A DNA stretch of 64,000 nt from an uncultured Candidatus Saccharibacteria bacterium (GTDB lineage Bacteria > Patescibacteriota > Saccharimonadia > Saccharimonadales > Saccharimonadaceae), in the NCBI GenBank assembly GCA_947367795.1, contig CANBER010000001.1:1498-65497 (forward strand), read 5' to 3'. Below the pieces are notes generated by a model that saw only the letters and a program-made list of their open reading frames with translations, did not search any database and was not told where the DNA came from. Below are positions 1,377-58,143 of this stretch, in pieces (the first letter of the stretch is position 1; each line of letters opens with the position of its first letter). A program made the position numbers and the translations under genes.

Positions 1377-1383
1377 GGGGATA

Positions 1384-1424
1384 TTGACTTTTATCGTATG
1401 GTGTGATATAATGGAGGTATGGGG
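1384..1424 (+). promoter_or_regulatory. signature sigma70 promoter copy
   Basis: TTGACT-17-TATAAT then GGAGGTATGGGG. Confidence 0.8.
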
Positions 1425-1469
1425 GTCTTTTTTATGAAGGCCTACTACCTTAAAAGGAGAGTGATAGAG

Positions 1470-6495: not shown

Positions 6496-6597
6496 AATGC
6501 TCCTTAAAATAATAAAAAATTCTTGTTTCATTTTACCACAGATCGGTGGCCTTGTCTAGAGTTTCAGGCGGATTTTGGAGAATTTGCGCATTTCCTA

Positions 6598-6632
6598 TTG
6601 ACTTTTTAGCCTAAGTGTGCTATAATGGAAGA
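6598..6632 (+). promoter_or_regulatory. signature sigma70 promoter copy
   Basis: TATTGACTTTTTAGCCTAAGTGTGCTATAATGGAAG. Confidence 0.8.
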
Positions 6633-6697
6633 TGAGACTGGTTTCACACTAACTGGGGTGGACTGGGATAGAAAATTATTAAAAGGAGGGGATAGAG

Positions 6698-12163: not shown

Positions 12164-12203
12164 AGATATAATTATAGCATAAAAGCCAGCACACTACCAA
12201 ATA

Positions 12204-12244
12204 TTGACTTTTTGGCACAAGTGTGATATAATGGAAGGATAGGC
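12204..12244 (+). promoter_or_regulatory. signature sigma70 promoter copy
   Basis: TATTGACTTTTTGGCACAAGTGTGATATAATGGAAGGATAGG. Confidence 0.8.
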
Positions 12245-12268
12245 CTATAGTTTCTGTCGCGAAGGTGA

Positions 12269-12613: not shown

Positions 12614-13156
12614 ATGAAACTAACTTTGGTACTACATAATATTCGTTCCGCCTACAATGTGGGGGCGATTTTGAGGACGGCTGAGGGACTAGGCGTGGAA
12701 AAGGTAGTGCTGTCTGGCTATACCCCACGTTACAATGATACGGAGATTTTGCCGCATTTACGGGAAAAATTGAATCATCAGATCGAAAAGTCAGCTTTGG
12801 GTGCAGAAAAACTGGTTTTACAGGAAAATTTGGGCAAAAATCTGGCGGATCTATTGACTTTTCTTGATAAGTATGGTATAATGGAGGGATATACCCTAGT
12901 CGGGCTAGAAAATAACCTTAATGAGGCAGAACAAGCTCGACAGCTGATCTTGGGTAGTGAGAAATCACGGGAAATTTGCCAGAAAGCAGAGAAATTGGTG
13001 CTAGTGCTGGGTGAAGAAGTCGGGGGGATTGCCCCGGAAATACGAGCCAAGATGGAATATTTCCTAGAAATCCCAATGCATGGCAAGAAGGAATCTTTTA
13101 ATGTTTCAGTAGCGGCAAGTATCGCGATGTGGGGGTTGATGTGTTACAATAATTAA
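12614..13156 (+). CDS. TrmH/SpoU family RNA methyltransferase
   Basis: LHNIRSAYNVGAILRTAEGLG; LVLGEEVGGI; EIPMHGKKESFNVSVAASI. Confidence 0.92.
   Translation: MKLTLVLHNIRSAYNVGAILRTAEGLGVEKVVLSGYTPRYNDTEILPHLREKLNHQIEKSALGAEKLVLQENLGKNLADLLTFLDKYGIMEGYTLVGLENNLNEAEQARQLILGSEKSREICQKAEKLVLVLGEEVGGIAPEIRAKMEYFLEIPMHGKKESFNVSVAASIAMWGLMCYNN
12854..12890 (+). promoter_or_regulatory. signature promoter copy embedded in the TrmH CDS
   Basis: CTATTGACTTTTCTTGATAAGTATGGTATAATGGAGGGAT, 17-bp spacer. Confidence 0.65.
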
Positions 13157-18128: not shown

Positions 18129-18149
18129 TTACGTTTTTCAAAAACGTAA
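18129..18149. repeat. palindrome P1
   Basis: TTACGTTTTT-C-AAAAACGTAA. Confidence 0.9.
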
Positions 18150-18190
18150 AGTAGTTTGATGGCCAATAACAGAGGTGAGATACGAAAAAG

Positions 18191-18220
18191 TACCTTACGT
18201 TTTTTAAAAAACGTAAGGTA
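18191..18220. repeat. perfect 30-bp palindrome P2
   Basis: TACCTTACGTTTTTTAAAAAACGTAAGGTA. Confidence 0.95.
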
Positions 18221-18322
18221 GCGGTGGCTGGAGTTTTTTGTAAAAGTGCGAGATAGGCCTTTAGGGACTATCTCAACACTACGTACGGGTTCTAGTAATA
18301 TATAACTATAGCCTCACCTCCT

Positions 18323-18525
18323 CTATCCTTCGTCCGTAGTGGCAGTCTTGCAGTATCAGCCGGCAACTTGGGTGCGGTTGGCAACTTCGGCTACAGCAGA
18401 TCTTCCATTGCTCAAGCTTATGTTTCCGTTACCGCTGCCGGAATGTCATATTTGCTTTTTGACGCAGCTTTAATTTCGCCCACCAAAGACCAAAGTCCTC
18501 GTTGGTATGGTTTCCCCATCCGCTG
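18323..18525 (+). other. gene-less 203-bp CLec/FISUMP-like variable cassette (copy C)
   Basis: CTATCCTTCGTCCGTAGTGG...CGTTGGTATGGTTTCCCCATCCGCTG; reads LSFVRSG...RWYGFPIR*; in-frame stop at 18296 and no start codon after it. Confidence 0.85.
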
Positions 18526-18596
18526 ACAATCATCACAACAGTGCGTAAATATCTAAACCCTTAGCACTATCACTATATATAAACTAATAGGCTAGG

Positions 18597-18799
18597 CAGC
18601 GGATGGGGAAACCGTACCAACGATGGAGCGGGCCGCTCGACGGGAATACGCTAGACGCATTGAAGGCGAGGTAGTACGCGGTAGCAGAAGTAACTTGATC
18701 AAACATCACGGAAGTTGAACTCCAATCGTAGCCATGGACGCCGAAGCCCCCCAGAGAACCGTTGTTCAGATCAACGAGTCCACTACGGACGAAGGATAG
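18597..18799 (-). other. gene-less 203-bp CLec/FISUMP-like variable cassette (copy A)
   Basis: same ends; reads LSFVRSG...GYDWSS...AYYLAF...RWYGFPIRCLAY*. Confidence 0.85.
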
Positions 18800-19813: not shown

Positions 19814-20012
19814 AATATAACTTCCTGATTAACTTAATATTGTGGCATTTTGGTACAGCAATACAAAATGCCTGAAACTCTTGTTAGATTATAGCGCAAA
19901 TGGTCCAAAAATGCAAGAGGTTTTGGGGAGTTTTGAGGAAAGCCTCAACTTTAGGGATTATTTCGGAATTTTTGCTAAAATTTACTGTTTTTTACAAAAT
20001 GGCGCTTTTCTA

Positions 20013-20055
20013 TTGACTTTTTGGAGTAAGTGTGATATAATGGAAGGATAGGGTC
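20013..20055 (+). promoter_or_regulatory. signature sigma70 promoter copy
   Basis: TATTGACTTTTTGGAGTAAGTGTGATATAATGGAAGGATAGGGTC. Confidence 0.8.
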
Positions 20056-20102
20056 ATCTGATCAAAACCAGTAAAATAGCACTTTAGTAAGGAGGTGGAG
20101 TA

Positions 20103-23942: not shown

Positions 23943-24000
23943 CTTCCCACCTATTTAACACTGTTTTTATTGTAACATAAGCGAAAAGTCGATGATAGTC

Positions 24001-24035
24001 TTGACTTTTTTATCAATGTGTGCTATAATGGGAGG
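24001..24035 (+). promoter_or_regulatory. signature sigma70 promoter copy
   Basis: TTGACTTTTTTATCAATGTGTGCTATAATGGGAGG. Confidence 0.75.
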
Positions 24036-24221
24036 ATGGGGTACTCGCATCAATCAATTCCTAAAAAGTGTTGGGTAGGCGACCAGCAGAAGGTCTGCTA
24101 CGATTCGCGCGATGAAGCTGAGGCTGCGGCGTTAGTGGCGGAGCACGATTATGGTGCACCAAAATTGTCGGTCTATAAGTGCGAGTACGGCGATCATTGG
24201 CACTTGAGTTCACGAGGCTAA
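24036..24221 (+). CDS. small hypothetical protein, C/H motif
   Basis: near-leaderless ATG 24036; YKCEYGDHWHLSS. Confidence 0.7.
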   Translation: MGYSHQSIPKKCWVGDQQKVCYDSRDEAEAAALVAEHDYGAPKLSVYKCEYGDHWHLSSRG

Positions 24222-36217: not shown

Positions 36218-36420
36218 CTATCCTTCGTCCGTAGTGGAGATGTTACCATCCCAAGCGGATCACTTAGAGATACCGGAAATTATAACTGCACCTGGTCATC
36301 TTTCGCCCACGAGTTAAGTTCTTCAATTTTCGCAAAAGCATATGATTTGACTTTTACCGATCTAGGAATTCGGCCCATGAACAGCAGCGATGATCGTTGG
36401 TATGGCTTCCCCATCCGCTG
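36218..36420 (+). other. gene-less 203-bp CLec/FISUMP-like variable cassette (copy D)
   Basis: same ends; reads LSFVRSG...TWSS...AYDLTF...RWYGFPIRC; in-frame stop at 36185 and no start codon after it. Confidence 0.85.
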
Positions 36421-36471: not shown

Positions 36472-36496
36472 TTACGTTTTTTGAAAACGTAAGGTA
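36472..36496. repeat. palindrome P3, homologous to P1/P2
   Basis: TTACGTTTT-TTG-AAAACGTAA then GGTA. Confidence 0.88.
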
Positions 36497-36510: not shown

Positions 36511-36536
36511 CGTTGGTTTATTTTCCCCATCCGCTG
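36511..36536 (+). repeat. isolated cassette 3' end
   Basis: CGTTGGTTTATTTTCCCCATCCGCTG vs CGTTGGTATGGTTTCCCCATCCGCTG (23/26). Confidence 0.85.
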
Positions 36537-37699: not shown

Positions 37700-37902
37700 C
37701 AGCGGATGGGGAAACCGTACCAACGATCGACCGGGCCGCCCGACGGGTAGACGCCAGGCGCACGGAAGTCGAGGAGGTACGCGGTAGCAGAAGTAACAGA
37801 AGTAAACACCCGTAAAGCCGAAGACCAGCCGTAACCATCGAGGCCGAAGCGCCCCATAGAACCGGCGCCCAGAATGACGGTCCCACTACGGACGAAGGAT
37901 AG
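37700..37902 (-). other. gene-less 203-bp CLec/FISUMP-like variable cassette (copy B)
   Basis: same ends; reads LSFVRSG...GYGWSS...AYLLDF...RWYGFPIRCN*; no ATG/GTG/TTG in frame upstream. Confidence 0.85.
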
Positions 37903-37929
37903 AGGAGGTGAGGCTATATTATAATATAC

Positions 37930-37954
37930 AAACCACCCCAGAATGAGGTGGTTT
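37930..37954 (-). terminator. terminator of the DUF362 gene
   Basis: aaaccacccca-gaa-tgaggtggttt. Confidence 0.65.
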
Positions 37955-47130: not shown

Positions 47131-47194
47131 TAGACCATCATAACGCTAATTTTTAGCAAAGTCAAGCCTGTAGTGCCAAAAATCGACGGTTCTA

Positions 47195-47236
47195 TTGATT
47201 TTTTGGCTTAAGTATGCTATGATGGAAGGATAGGGT
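47195..47236 (+). promoter_or_regulatory. signature promoter variant
   Basis: TATTGATTTTTTGGCTTAAGTATGCTATGATGGAAGGATAGGGT. Confidence 0.7.
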
Positions 47237-47275
47237 GCTCTCAAGCAGAGAAACTCAGAATTATTTAAGAAAGAG

Positions 47276-50587: not shown

Positions 50588-50626
50588 CGGATTTAGGATA
50601 GATGTGAAGTCAAGAGGAAAATATTC

Positions 50627-50661
50627 TTGACTTTTTTGATAATGTGTGATACAATAGAGGT
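50627..50661 (+). promoter_or_regulatory. signature promoter variant
   Basis: TTGACTTTTTTGATAATGTGTGATACAATAGAGG. Confidence 0.7.
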
Positions 50662-50717
50662 AGAGCTGAGATAAAGCTTTAGGTTTTGATGTGGTCAAAC
50701 ATAGATTGGAGGGATAA

Positions 50718-57663: not shown

Positions 57664-58143
57664 TTAAGGCTTTTTCCGATAATTTGCAATTGCCGCAGCC
57701 AACGCCTCGTGCCCTAAGACCGAACAATGCACTTTGTGTTCAGGTAGACCGCCGAGGTAGGCAGTAATAGTTTCGGGTCCCACGGTGAGAGCTTCATCCA
57801 AAGTTTTACCTTTAATTAGTTCGGAAAGGGCCGAAGTCGCGGCAATTGCACTGGCGCAACCGTAGGTCTTCCAGCGAACGTCAGAAATCTTGCCGTCCTT
57901 GATCACTAAAAACATTTTCATTTGGTCACCACAGACCGGATTCCCTACAACACCTATGGCATCACAGGCGAATTGTGCTTCGTCGCCCATGAGGAAATTG
58001 CACGGGTTCAAAAAATGTTCTTTTACCAGGTCAGAATAAACCCAAGAAGTACTCGGAGATGCCCCAGAAGTAATTTTAGTATTGACTTTTTCACAATTCT
58101 GTGCTATAATGGAAGTATGGGGGGTGTTTTCAGATTGAGACAT
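57664..58143 (-). CDS. iscU: Fe-S scaffold IscU/NifU-like
   Basis: YSDLVKEHFLNP; GNPVCGD; YGCASAIA; KVHCS. Confidence 0.92.
   Translation of the reverse strand: MSQSENTPHTSIIAQNCEKVNTKITSGASPSTSWVYSDLVKEHFLNPCNFLMGDEAQFACDAIGVVGNPVCGDQMKMFLVIKDGKISDVRWKTYGCASAIAATSALSELIKGKTLDEALTVGPETITAYLGGLPEHKVHCSVLGHEALAAAIANYRKKP
58082..58124 (+). promoter_or_regulatory. signature promoter copy inside the iscU 5' end, pointing antisense into iscS
   Basis: TATTGACTTTTTCACAATTCTGTGCTATAATGGAAGTATGGGG. Confidence 0.65.

What the first reader, a model, noticed from the sequence alone, without database searches (positions are those of the whole stretch)
18323..18799. Family of gene-less, fixed-length CLec/FISUMP cassettes: candidate silent-cassette diversification system
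SEEN: four copies (18323-18525 +, 18597-18799 -, 36218-36420 +, 37700-37902 -), each exactly 203 bp and colinear without gaps. The 5' 20 nt (CTATCCTTCGTCCGTAGTGG) are identical and the 3' 26 nt (CGTTGGTAYGGYTTCCCCATCCGCTG) nearly so. Interiors of C and D are heavily diverged yet stay open for 67 codons (LSFVRSG...G.G..WSS...AY.L.F...P...RWYGFPIR). None has an upstream gene body, and C, D and B have no start codon in frame. Similarity breaks at TG| inside the final Cys codon (copy C reads TGA there). KNOWN: this pattern matches the C-terminal ligand-binding region of CLec-fold FISUMP (Fib_succ_major-like) proteins, the fold targeted by DGRs. Silent cassettes with conserved flanks drive vlsE and pilE variation. 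INFERENCE: the ends are conserved as DNA, not only as protein, and the interiors are kept translatable. The copies therefore look like donors swapped between two homology arms into an expressed surface gene elsewhere. I know of no such system described in CPR.
Basis: partly seen in the sequence, partly recalled or inferred. Interest (0 to 1): 0.92.

Follow-up and report, generated by a model that had tools for sequence, protein, structure and literature searches.

The report
Archive of orphan DGR variable cassettes
The four 203-base repeats belong to about 75 start-less copies of the hypervariable tip of one surface-protein gene that a mutagenic reverse transcriptase (a DGR) rewrites, and they look like a stored library that is copied back into the single expressed gene.

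Summary
There are four colinear 203-nt copies with DNA-identical ends, and none has a gene body. They are a small part of a larger family: the 860-kb mouse-gut Saccharibacteria genome holds about 76 copies, which account for half of its contig breaks.

A DGR lies on another contig, with a reverse transcriptase followed by an Asn-codon-rich template repeat (TR). Copies 18597-18799(-) and 37700-37902(-) differ from the TR almost only at its adenines, so they are genuine variable repeats (class I). Copies 18323-18525(+) and 36218-36420(+) are old, diverged members (class II). Their changes are mostly at third codon positions, their frames are open, and their arms are still DNA-identical.

The 21-33 nt upstream of most copies encode YNIASPP. 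This is a remnant of one 605-aa FISUMP-like target gene, which is split between two contigs here and bridged by independent assemblies. In those assemblies the gene carries the interiors of different orphans, including a class II one, while the orphan loci stay unchanged.

Best reading: DGR mutagenesis combined with a silent-cassette archive that is exchanged by homologous recombination. The DGR part is solid. The exchange rests on short-read assemblies. The RT-proximal "template" also varies between samples, which is unexplained.

The parts
18302..18322 (+). Remnant of target-gene coding sequence (..ITIASPP) directly upstream of cassette 18323. It is not a promoter or an anti-Shine-Dalgarno element.
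   Evidence: ATAGCCTCACCTCCT reads in frame as IASPP and is shared by about 45 of 72 copies. It matches ..YNIASPPLSFVRSG.. of the 605-aa gene and YNIAGAPLYFVRGG of a full-length gene in relative G014.
18323..18525 (+). Class II (diverged) orphan cassette: 67 open codons, then TGA; no start codon.
   Evidence: Compared with the TR, 69/161 non-A and 26/38 A positions differ. The non-A changes by codon position are 17/11/41. Both arms are identical to the family. The sequence is identical in 4 independent samples.
18567..18596 (-). VR-type 3' flank of cassette 18799 (CCTAGCCTATTAGTTTATATATAGTGATAG). It holds the codons ..CLAY and the stop at 18584-18586.
   Evidence: The same flank follows the VR of the full-length gene and about 15 other copies.
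18597..18799 (-). Class I orphan cassette: a DGR variable repeat without a gene body. It lies 120 nt downstream of rpsG, tail to tail with 18323-18525.
   Evidence: Compared with the TR, 20/38 A positions differ against 18/161 non-A positions (Fisher P = 1e-7). It is identical in 4 samples. In another strain, cassette positions 34-105 are replaced by 69 unlike letters.
36218..36420 (+). Class II (diverged) orphan cassette; only the 20-nt 5' arm and 26-nt 3' arm are shared with the family.
   Evidence: Compared with the TR, 70/161 non-A and 17/38 A positions differ (no A bias, P = 0.5). The non-A changes by codon position are 13/16/41. It is contiguous with both flanks in a 1815-nt contig of another run.
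36511..36536 (+). Lone 3' arm (CGTTGGTTTATTTTCCCCATCCGCTG) with no interior or 5' arm, 90 nt downstream of cassette 36218.
   Evidence: Motif scan and sequence. The same variant occurs at C22:10202-10227.
37700..37902 (-). Class I orphan cassette: a DGR variable repeat without a gene body, 77 nt downstream of a DUF362 gene.
   Evidence: Compared with the TR, 24/38 A positions differ against 11/161 non-A positions (P = 3e-13). The locus is identical in ENA sample ERZ14231479. In ENA contig L150, 190 nt are identical to the VR of the full-length gene (the 33-nt remnant plus the first 157 cassette positions).
37903..37935 (-). 33-nt remnant of target-gene coding sequence (..YYNIASPP) upstream of cassette 37902.
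   Evidence: It is identical to the expressed gene from ATTATAATATAGCCTCACCTCCT onward, and similarity stops upstream of that (alignment A2).
18131..18214 (.). Two AT-rich palindromes (ACGTTTTTCAAAAACGT at 18131-18147; ACGTTTTTTAAAAAACGT at 18197-18214) beside the cassette pair.
   Evidence: 6 of the 8 genomic matches to this pattern lie within 350 nt of a cassette. Function not tested.

Best explanation
The four repeats belong to a family of about 75 promoterless, start-less 3' cassettes. Each copies the last 67 codons (the variable repeat, VR) of one 605-aa secreted FISUMP-like surface protein, and most also carry 21-33 nt of upstream coding remnant. That protein is the target of a diversity-generating retroelement (DGR).

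Shown: an RT gene and an Asn-codon-rich template repeat lie on contig C9. About half of the cassettes, including 18597-18799(-) and 37700-37902(-), match the template at non-adenine positions and differ at about half of its adenines. They are therefore products of DGR mutagenesis. The other half, including 18323-18525(+) and 36218-36420(+), are old and diverged.

Inferred: the cassettes are not translated where they lie. They form an archive. RecA-type homologous recombination through the two DNA-identical arms (20-43 nt and 26-51 nt) copies whole or partial interiors into the single expression site. The cell would thus combine de novo adenine mutagenesis with re-use of stored, previously selected variants. 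The same exchange would keep the arms homogenised.

My odds: class I copies are DGR VRs, 0.9. The cassettes serve as recombination donors, 0.55.
For: DGR components:
- RVT_1 scores above its cut-off at C9:34168-34698.
- The best solved-structure match is a 328-aa RT, 8ub7, at E = 1.7e-23. The IGNLTSQ motif is visible in the ORF.
- The template repeat lies 340 nt downstream of the RT. 19 of its 67 codons are AAY, and 37 of its 38 scored adenines sit at codon positions 1 or 2.
- The same RT-then-TR layout is found in two other species of the genus.

Adenine signature:
- In the 24 class I copies, 463/912 A sites changed against 327/3864 non-A sites. Per-copy P values run from 1e-5 to 1e-15, apart from two borderline copies at about 1e-3.

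Target gene:
- The body is at C19:1-1513 and the VR at C8:38336-38605. They are joined in ENA contig L014. The gene lies next to the RT in contigs L149, L150 and L152.

Selection, meaning the sequences were once expressed:
- Scaffold adenines (AGT, TAC, ACT, ACC, ATC-66) changed in 0-3 of 24 copies. AAY first positions changed in 12-22 of 24, and a synonymous TCA in 21 of 24.
- Class II copies are open in 21/22 cases against 7% expected. Their changes are concentrated at third codon positions.

Arm homogenisation:
- Fisher P = 5e-61. The arms of relative G014 differ at synonymous sites, so the identity is specific to this genome.

Exchange:
- 12 full-length versions from other assemblies share their N-terminal 536 aa, with only isolated substitutions, but carry different VRs.
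- L149 carries 218 nt identical to class II orphan C36+4664, with only 11 nt shared at the 3' crossover.
- L153 carries the whole interior of C7-262. L150 matches window copy 37902 over 190 nt.
- The donor loci are unchanged and single-copy in other samples.
- Within G000, identical interiors sit behind different flanks: six contig-end pairs share a 77-mer.
- RecA is present.
Against: - All evidence for transfer into the expression site comes from short-read assemblies of a 76-copy repeat, and those assemblies disagree. L014 joins the gene body to the TK context, while L149, L150 and L152 join it to the RT context. At least one path choice is therefore wrong, or the strains are rearranged.
- No long-read run was available.
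- Orphan loci are constant across samples from 2020-2025, so ongoing DGR action on them is not shown.
- The RT-proximal 'template' is not invariant in the species, which does not fit the canonical DGR model.
- No accessory Avd-like protein was recognised.
- Transcription of the cassettes is essentially untested: the only evidence is one 151-nt metatranscriptome contig.
Confidence: 0.55

Rival explanations
1. Dead debris kept looking alive by the DGR. The cassettes are non-functional 3' stubs left by duplications. Retrohoming from the TR keeps overwriting them, which resets the non-A positions and the arms. AAY codons cannot mutate into stops, so the frames stay open without selection, and the cassettes have no donor role.
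For: No start codons or gene bodies. Strong A-specific signature in class I. In 11 or so copies, similarity to the family begins exactly at the 5' edge of the TR (CCTTCG...), as expected if only the TR-covered part is refreshed. The orphans are stable across samples.
Against: The 22 class II copies do not match the TR inside (30-45% of non-A sites differ). Even so, 21 are open, their changes are biased to third codon positions, and their arms are DNA-identical. Full homing would have overwritten them. Scaffold adenines are protected in class I, which indicates selection on an expressed protein. About 20 kb (2.3%) of a streamlined 0.86-Mb genome is taken up by these copies. Orphan interiors appear in the full-length gene in other assemblies.
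Confidence: 0.2
2. Selfish MITE-like or retro-copied element. The unit (coding remnant + VR + 25-nt 3' flank) spreads by itself, for example by RT-mediated copying or by insertion next to existing 3' ends, and has no role for the cell.
For: About 76 copies lie at unrelated intergenic sites with fairly fixed unit ends. Neighbouring copies are convergent (9 pairs) or tandem (14 pairs) and never divergent (0 pairs). This suggests that new copies arise at the 3' ends of old ones. Copy number expands in some lineages: about 75 copies in G000, about 45 in G014 and about 2 in G010.
Against: No transposase or target-site duplication was identified. Protein-level constraint in class II and at scaffold adenines is not expected for a selfish non-coding element. 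Arm identity together with 42% interior identity is not the pattern of a recent burst.
Confidence: 0.1
3. Shufflon-like site-specific inversion. Tail-to-tail pairs bounded by inverted 20-nt motifs are flipped by a recombinase to swap C-termini.
For: There are nine convergent pairs. In G014, two full-length genes each lie tail to tail with an orphan.
Against: Neither pair in the window abuts a gene body. In the one G014 gene-orphan pair examined (L009), the inverted identity is only about 9 nt. No recombinase gene was found next to the loci examined. Tandem arrays and single copies do not fit this model.
Confidence: 0.05
4. Independently translated 70-aa mini-proteins that use a non-canonical start (for example the in-frame ATA of ..AATATAGCC..).
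For: The frames are open. Gene callers produce hundreds of 62-230-aa ORFs of this family in public data. One RNA contig lies inside cassette 18323.
Against: There is no ATG/GTG/TTG with a Shine-Dalgarno site in most copies. The 67 residues are only the C-terminal third or so of the FISUMP-like domain. There is no signal peptide. The upstream conserved bases are a remnant of the parent gene's codons.
Confidence: 0.05
5. Misassembly: the cassettes are really the ends of ordinary long genes that the assembler joined to the wrong flanks.
For: 38 of 76 contig ends lie within 300 nt of a cassette arm, and assemblies disagree around the expression site.
Against: Independent k=31 contigs from several samples show unique flanks running straight into stub starts, with whole orphan loci contiguous. 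Only 5 full-length bodies exist in the genome against about 76 cassettes.
Confidence: 0.03

Closest known systems
Cellular DGRs with several or remote variable repeats (Treponema denticola, 7 non-adjacent targets; Legionella-type CLec2 / Fib_succ_major VR class; PMC5758913)
   Same: An RT plus an adenine-rich TR, A-to-N differences in the VRs, a VR at the C-terminal end of a secreted ligand-binding-type protein, and VRs far from the RT acted on in trans.
   Different: There are at least 24 complete TR-matched VRs (about 76 family members), compared with a published maximum of 7-8 targets per DGR; CPR DGRs are also said to have mostly one target (PMC5758913). All but one or two VRs have no gene. 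A second, TR-unlike class shares only the arms. The RT-proximal copy varies between samples. No Avd was recognised.
Silent-cassette gene conversion systems (Neisseria pilE/pilS; Borrelia vlsE with 15 silent cassettes, PMC2632889)
   Same: One expression site plus many promoterless partial copies. Conserved DNA at the cassette borders. Mosaic (segmental) variants at the expression site, with donors that stay unchanged. RecA is present.
   Different: The cassettes are dispersed over the whole chromosome rather than held in one array. They cover only the last 67 codons. A retroelement creates new cassette content. Transfer has not been shown on single molecules. No G4-type cis element was seen near the gene.
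Chicken and rabbit immunoglobulin diversification (pseudo-V gene conversion plus somatic hypermutation) - a functional analogy only, from general knowledge
   Same: Targeted hypermutation of one expressed binding site, combined with templated conversion from a bank of non-expressed partial copies.
   Different: The molecules are unrelated (AID versus a reverse transcriptase). Here the bank itself carries the hypermutation signature.
R64-type shufflon / invertible C-terminal segments
   Same: Alternative C-terminal coding segments lie tail to tail and are bounded by short inverted repeats.
   Different: There is no adjacent gene body and no recombinase at the window pairs. Most copies are tandem or solitary.

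Membership tests
Diversity-generating retroelement (DGR) | Reverse transcriptase of the DGR type | tested here: met
   RVT_1 scores above its cut-off. The best PDB match is the 328-aa RT 8ub7 at E = 1.7e-23, well ahead of Drt2, retron and group II RTs. From memory I take 8ub7 to be the Bordetella phage DGR RT. The IGNLTSQ motif ([ILV]GxxxSQ, the DGR hallmark known from the literature) is visible in the ORF.
Diversity-generating retroelement (DGR) | TR/VR pair whose differences lie at TR adenines | tested here: met
   Met for 24 complete copies, including window copies 18799(-) and 37902(-): 51% of A sites changed against 8.5% of non-A sites. Not met for 22 class II copies, including 18323(+) and 36218(+).
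Diversity-generating retroelement (DGR) | VR lies inside (at the 3' end of) a target ORF | tested here: not met
   Not met for the four window copies or for any other dispersed copy. Met only for the 605-aa gene.
Diversity-generating retroelement (DGR) | Invariant template repeat | tested here: not met
   The RT-proximal copy is Asn-rich in G000, G014 and G010. Within the species it carries 8-10 substitutions, nearly all at A, in runs X9 and X15. In L150 and L152 it has a VR-like interior plus a VR-type 3' flank.
Diversity-generating retroelement (DGR) | IMH and hairpin/cruciform downstream of the VR; accessory protein (Avd) | tested here: inconclusive
   A 12-bp-stem hairpin lies about 55 nt after the VR of the full-length gene. 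Orphans share only about 25 nt of that flank. The ORFs next to the RT have no Pfam or NCBIfam match apart from a weak CdiA_C hit.
Silent-cassette gene conversion (pilE/pilS, vlsE type) | Single expression site plus multiple promoterless partial copies sharing conserved border sequences | tested here: met
   One full-length gene carries both arms, about 75 stubs exist, and the arms are DNA-identical.
Silent-cassette gene conversion (pilE/pilS, vlsE type) | Donor sequence appears in the expression site while the donor is retained | tested here: inconclusive
   Seen across short-read assemblies. The donors are unchanged and single-copy in the four other samples examined. There is no single-molecule proof, and the assemblies conflict on the downstream context.
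Silent-cassette gene conversion (pilE/pilS, vlsE type) | Homologous-recombination machinery present | tested here: met
   RecA at C2:26595-27377, E = 2e-142.
FISUMP (Fib_succ_major, PF09603 / TIGR02145) and C-type-lectin fold of DGR targets | Profile match over the curated threshold | tested here: inconclusive
   The single cassette peptides give no hit. P0001 matches TIGR02145 below the cut-off (28.9 against 41.65 bits). 27 of 48 full-length homologues match PF09603 at E < 1e-3, with a best value of 5e-7.
FISUMP (Fib_succ_major, PF09603 / TIGR02145) and C-type-lectin fold of DGR targets | C-type-lectin-like fold of the VR-bearing domain | tested here: inconclusive
   The AF2 model of the whole protein is good (pLDDT 87). 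However, the Foldseek hits are pilin-like folds of a size (about 124-160 residues) that fits the N-terminal domain only. A model of the C-terminal part alone failed (pLDDT 33).
Shufflon | Invertible segments abutting a constant gene body, with a dedicated recombinase | tested here: not met
   There is no gene body beside either window pair, and no recombinase was seen at the loci examined.

The most novel reading that the evidence does not exclude
A two-tier diversification system. A DGR writes new adenine-mutated tips of one surface adhesin. A chromosome-wide bank of about 75 silent cassettes stores variants that have already been selected. Recombination through 20-50-nt arms returns them, whole or in segments, to the expression site. 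It may also return them to the RT-proximal template site, which would re-seed mutagenesis from an archived variant and would explain why the 'template' differs between samples. This would be a bacterial counterpart of hypermutation combined with pseudogene conversion in vertebrate antibody genes, in an 0.86-Mb epibiont genome.
Probability: 0.4. Interest if true: 0.92.

Novelty: new variant of a known kind. Interest (0 to 1): 0.8.

Why it matters
DGRs are described as one template rewriting one or a few genes. The surveys I could read give at most 7-8 targets per element and mostly one in CPR bacteria (PMC5758913, PMC11661182). Here a genome of 0.86 Mb spends about 2% of its DNA on some 75 gene-less copies of the variable tip. 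The same pattern appears in a second species of the genus and in hundreds of short ORF clusters in public metagenomes. If the copies are donors, this couples retroelement hypermutation with cassette gene conversion and provides a memory of past variants, which has not been described for DGRs. It would bear on how ultra-small epibionts keep up with changing host surfaces in the gut. It also matters in practice. These cassettes cause half of the contig breaks in this MAG. They produce chimeric-looking target genes in assemblies. They are also invisible to DGR finders that require a VR to lie inside an ORF.

Tried and rejected
- Pfam and NCBIfam scans of the four 67-aa peptides gave nothing. A profile of 23 cassettes against PDB sequences gave only chance hits.
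- Rfam on 17.9-19.0 kb gave no credible RNA family.
- I first read the conserved TATAAT...CCTCACCTCCT upstream as a promoter plus an anti-Shine-Dalgarno leader, or as an SD for the opposite strand. I rejected this because it is the codons YNIASPP of the parent gene.
- Scaffolding contigs by terminal overlaps found nothing at first. Later I found that the assembly shares terminal 77-mers.
- An exact 16-mer scan of GTDB genomes returned only chance single hits. No other species has this arm in multiple copies.
- Runs labelled as RNA were mostly DNA-like. The one true metatranscriptome gave 3 contigs in 20 kb, one of them inside cassette 18323, which is too little to call transcription.
- No PacBio or Nanopore run was available. 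Contigs fetched from ENA could not be used for read laying.
- The 69 replaced letters of the other-strain variant of copy 18799 could not be read out.
- An orthologous 'empty site' downstream of rpsG could not be used, because synteny is not kept in G014.
- The C-terminal-only AF2 model failed. Foldseek gave no C-type-lectin match.
- No G4 motif was seen near the expression gene.
- An inversion between VR and TR does not explain the VR-type flank at the template site, because both sites then carry the VR-type flank.
Full report
**Naming.** I name the four copies by coordinates: c18323 (18323-18525 +), c18799 (18597-18799 -), c36218 (36218-36420 +) and c37902 (37700-37902 -). The window is C1:1498-65497 of an 860,540-bp, 38-contig genome (94.6% complete). 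The public runs that hold it are mostly labelled mouse gut metagenome.

**Observation.**
- All four copies are exactly 203 nt and align without gaps.
- The first 20 nt are identical. The last 26 nt differ only at two Y positions. Similarity stops at CCGCTG|.
- Each keeps 67 codons open.
- The in-frame stretch upstream is 8, 40, 10 and 23 codons, without a credible start.

**The family is far larger than four.**
- The core TTCGTCCGTAGTGG (at most 1 mismatch) occurs 76 times in the genome. 46 of these copies are exactly 203 nt long up to the 3' motif. Nearly all the rest are cut by contig ends or differ by whole codons.
- 38 of 76 contig ends lie within 300 nt of an arm, so the family is the main reason this genome is fragmented.
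- Neighbouring copies within 700 nt are convergent (9 pairs) or tandem (14 pairs) and never divergent.

**A DGR is present.**
- The only RVT_1 match in the genome is at C9:34168-34698. Its best solved relative is the 328-aa RT 8ub7 (E = 1.7e-23). The ORF contains IGNLTSQ.
- A cassette copy lies 340 nt downstream, at C9:35269-35471. It reads NVNLNNGSLRNFGINGYGW...NLNFNASGVNPSNGPNNRWNGFPIRC. 19 of its 67 codons are AAY.
- Species G014 and G010 of the same genus have the same layout: an RT followed by an Asn-rich repeat.
- I compared each complete copy with this template (TR). The copies fall into two classes.
  - Class I has 24 copies, including c18799 and c37902. Non-A mismatches are 2-36 of 161 and A mismatches are 16-24 of 38. 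Fisher P values run from 1e-5 to 1e-15 for all but two borderline copies, which are at about 1e-3. Overall, 51% of A sites changed against 8.5% of non-A sites.
  - Class II has 22 copies, including c18323 and c36218. Non-A mismatches are 48-73 of 161, with no adenine bias.

**What the stubs are.**
- The conserved bases upstream of most copies (TATAATATAGCCTCACCTCCT) look like a -10 box plus an anti-SD. Read in frame they are YNIASPP.
- A full-length gene in G014 has ..YNIAGAPLYFVRGG.. at the same place.
- G000 has five full-length bodies of 555-605 aa: a signal/TM segment, a pilin-like beta-sandwich N-domain, then CWMTQNL...ICPKGW.LP...FY.VR.G...VRC. Four of them have their own diverged C-termini.
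- The fifth runs off contig C19. Its exact full-length form (P0001, 605 aa) exists in an independent ENA contig that joins C19 to the end of C8. It reads ...SNVAGTGQDGNNYNIASPPLSFVRSG...GFPIRCLAY.
- The orphans are therefore copies of the last 67 codons of this one gene. They carry 0-33 nt of upstream coding remnant and about 25 nt of 3' flank.
- FISUMP membership is weak. TIGR02145 is below its cut-off in P0001. PF09603 matches 27 of 48 homologues. The C-type-lectin fold could not be shown.

**The orphans are real and stable.**
- Logan contigs of four samples reproduce the unique flank running into c18323. They also reproduce both c18323 and c18799 with no difference.
- c36218 is contiguous with its flanks in another run.
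- The c37902 locus is identical in an ENA sample.
- Orphan C36+4664 is intact and at single-copy depth in four samples.

**Signs that these sequences have been expressed and selected.**
- Within class I, adenines in scaffold codons (AGT-6, TAC-24, ACT-37, ACC-40, TAC-42, ATC-66) changed in 0-3 of 24 copies. AAY first positions changed in 12-22 of 24, and a synonymous TCA in 21 of 24.
- Class II interiors are only 42% identical to each other in DNA. Even so, 21 of 22 are open (7% expected), and their changes are concentrated at third codon positions.
- The arms stay DNA-identical. Third positions changed at 1/110 (5' arm) and 33/176 (3' arm) against 734/1144 in the interior (P = 5e-61).
- The arms of G014 differ from those of G000 at synonymous sites. 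The identity is therefore concerted evolution within this genome and not slow evolution.

**Evidence for exchange.**
- Twelve full-length versions of the gene from other assemblies share their first 536 residues, apart from isolated substitutions, but have different VRs.
- Several of these VRs equal G000 orphans.
  - P0121/L149 is 218 nt identical to class II orphan C36+4664. Only 11 nt are shared at the 3' crossover, which is too short for a de Bruijn chimera at k = 21 or more, given the G000 repertoire.
  - P0132/L153 carries the whole interior of C7-262.
  - P0124/L150 matches c37902 over 190 nt.
  - P0134, P0128, P0129 and P0001 are partial or mosaic matches.
- Five others (P0122, P0123, P0126, P0131, P0133) have no match of 14 or more residues in the G000 repertoire. 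By my own reading of the sequences, not a computed test, P0126 and P0131 differ from the template mostly at Asn positions.
- Within G000, six pairs of contig ends share a 77-mer inside a cassette but have different 5' flanks.
- In another strain, positions 34-105 of c18799 are replaced by 69 unlike letters. That is a block change, not a set of A-point changes.
- RecA is present.
- Because the orphan set is shared and stable while the expression site differs, the consistent direction of transfer is orphan to expression site.

**Caveats.**
- All of this rests on short-read assemblies of a 76-copy repeat.
- The last 420 nt or so of the gene exist twice. There is a long stub after a terminator at the end of C15.
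- The assemblies disagree on the downstream context. L014 gives the TK context. L149, L150 and L152 give the RT context.
- No long reads could be found.

**An unexplained point.**
- The RT-proximal copy is not constant within the species.
- 5-kb contigs of runs X9 and X15, contiguous with the RT gene, carry 8-10 substitutions there, nearly all at adenines, and the two runs differ from each other.
- In X1 the 5' part is changed, while the 3' half matches G000 at single-copy depth.
- L150 and L152 have a VR-like interior followed by the 80-nt VR-type flank with the hairpin at that site.
- Either the template is often overwritten from the nearby inverted VR or from the archive, or the template site is itself exchangeable.

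**Breadth and literature.**
- G014 has at least 41 copies similar to its own TR and about 45 stub-length matches. G010 has only a few.
- A profile of the cassettes finds 941 protein clusters (258 at E < 1e-10). The best 150 are nearly all 62-230 aa, and many hold 2-5 cassettes in tandem.
- The published surveys I could read report at most 8 adjacent or 7 remote targets per DGR, mostly single targets in CPR, and VRs inside ORFs (PMC5758913, PMC11661182, PMC8144416, PMC10907252).
- I found no paper that links DGRs with silent cassettes. Paul et al. 2017 could not be read.
- Earlier notes of this scan report orphan VR cassettes in other Saccharibacteria genomes. I treat these as leads, not as evidence.

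**Mechanism.**
- Shown: the RT and TR; the adenine-specific signature in about half of the copies; one full-length target gene; the truncated, start-less nature and stability of the orphans; arm homogenisation; protein-level constraint.
- Inferred: the orphans are an archive whose content is copied through the arms into the expression site by homologous recombination (odds 0.55). The DGR supplies new content at the expression site.
- Unknown: how new orphan loci arise (the lack of divergent pairs hints at formation at 3' ends); whether orphans are still homing targets; why the template varies.

Noticed in passing
genome contig C9:35269-35471 (outside the window); loci L018, L150, L152: The RT-proximal 'template repeat' is Asn-rich in this genome. 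In other samples of the same species it carries A-site substitutions that differ between samples, and in two ENA assemblies it has a VR-like interior plus the VR-type 3' flank with hairpin. This does not fit an invariant TR.
   Followed up: partly
window 1379-1430, 6593-6644, 12199-12250, 12849-12900, 20008-20059, 23996-24047, 47190-47241, 50622-50673, 58077-58128: Nine plus-strand copies of a strong promoter-like unit (TATTGACTTTTT-n-TGTGATATAATGGAAGGATAGG). Its tail GAAGGATAG equals the reverse complement of the cassette 5' end. I treat this as coincidence until tested.
   Followed up: no
window 18131-18147, 18197-18214, 36474-36490: AT-rich palindromes (ACGTTTTT..AAAAACGT) sit next to cassettes. 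6 of the 8 strict matches in the genome lie within 350 nt of a cassette. Some cassettes share a second 3' module (..CLSAKILRIK.. followed by this palindrome).
   Followed up: partly
window 36511-36536: An isolated cassette 3' arm without an interior or 5' arm. The same variant occurs on contig C22.
   Followed up: partly
whole genome: Neighbouring cassettes are convergent (9 pairs) or tandem (14 pairs) and never divergent (0 pairs). This suggests that new copies form at the 3' ends of existing ones, or that paired 3' ends (a ready-made cruciform) are favoured.
   Followed up: no
protein P0001 residues about 55-210 (gene on C19): The N-terminal domain of the DGR target is modelled as a beta-sandwich. 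Its best structural matches are chaperone-usher pilins (CfaB, FimA, Caf1; Foldseek E about 1e-4).
   Followed up: no
C9:35759-36073(-) / L150:5262-5549: A 95-aa ORF lies between the target gene and the template, with a weak CdiA_C (toxin C-terminal domain) match (E = 0.002, below the cut-off). G014 has a 127-aa ORF at the same place.
   Followed up: no
window 18352-18502: In the one run clearly labelled as a metatranscriptome (X38), only three 151-nt contigs map to a 20-kb stretch, and one lies inside cassette 18323. This is a hint of transcription but is too thin to use.
   Followed up: partly
C15 right end (last 86 nt) and C19 left end: A second, longer stub of the target gene starts at ..IANSNAPGSICPKNW.. 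directly after a terminator hairpin. The last 420 nt or so of the gene therefore exist twice, and assemblies pair the two copies with two different downstream contexts.
   Followed up: partly
C11:31148 (contig end): A 60-nt run made almost only of G at a contig end. It is probably a sequencing or assembly artefact.
   Followed up: no
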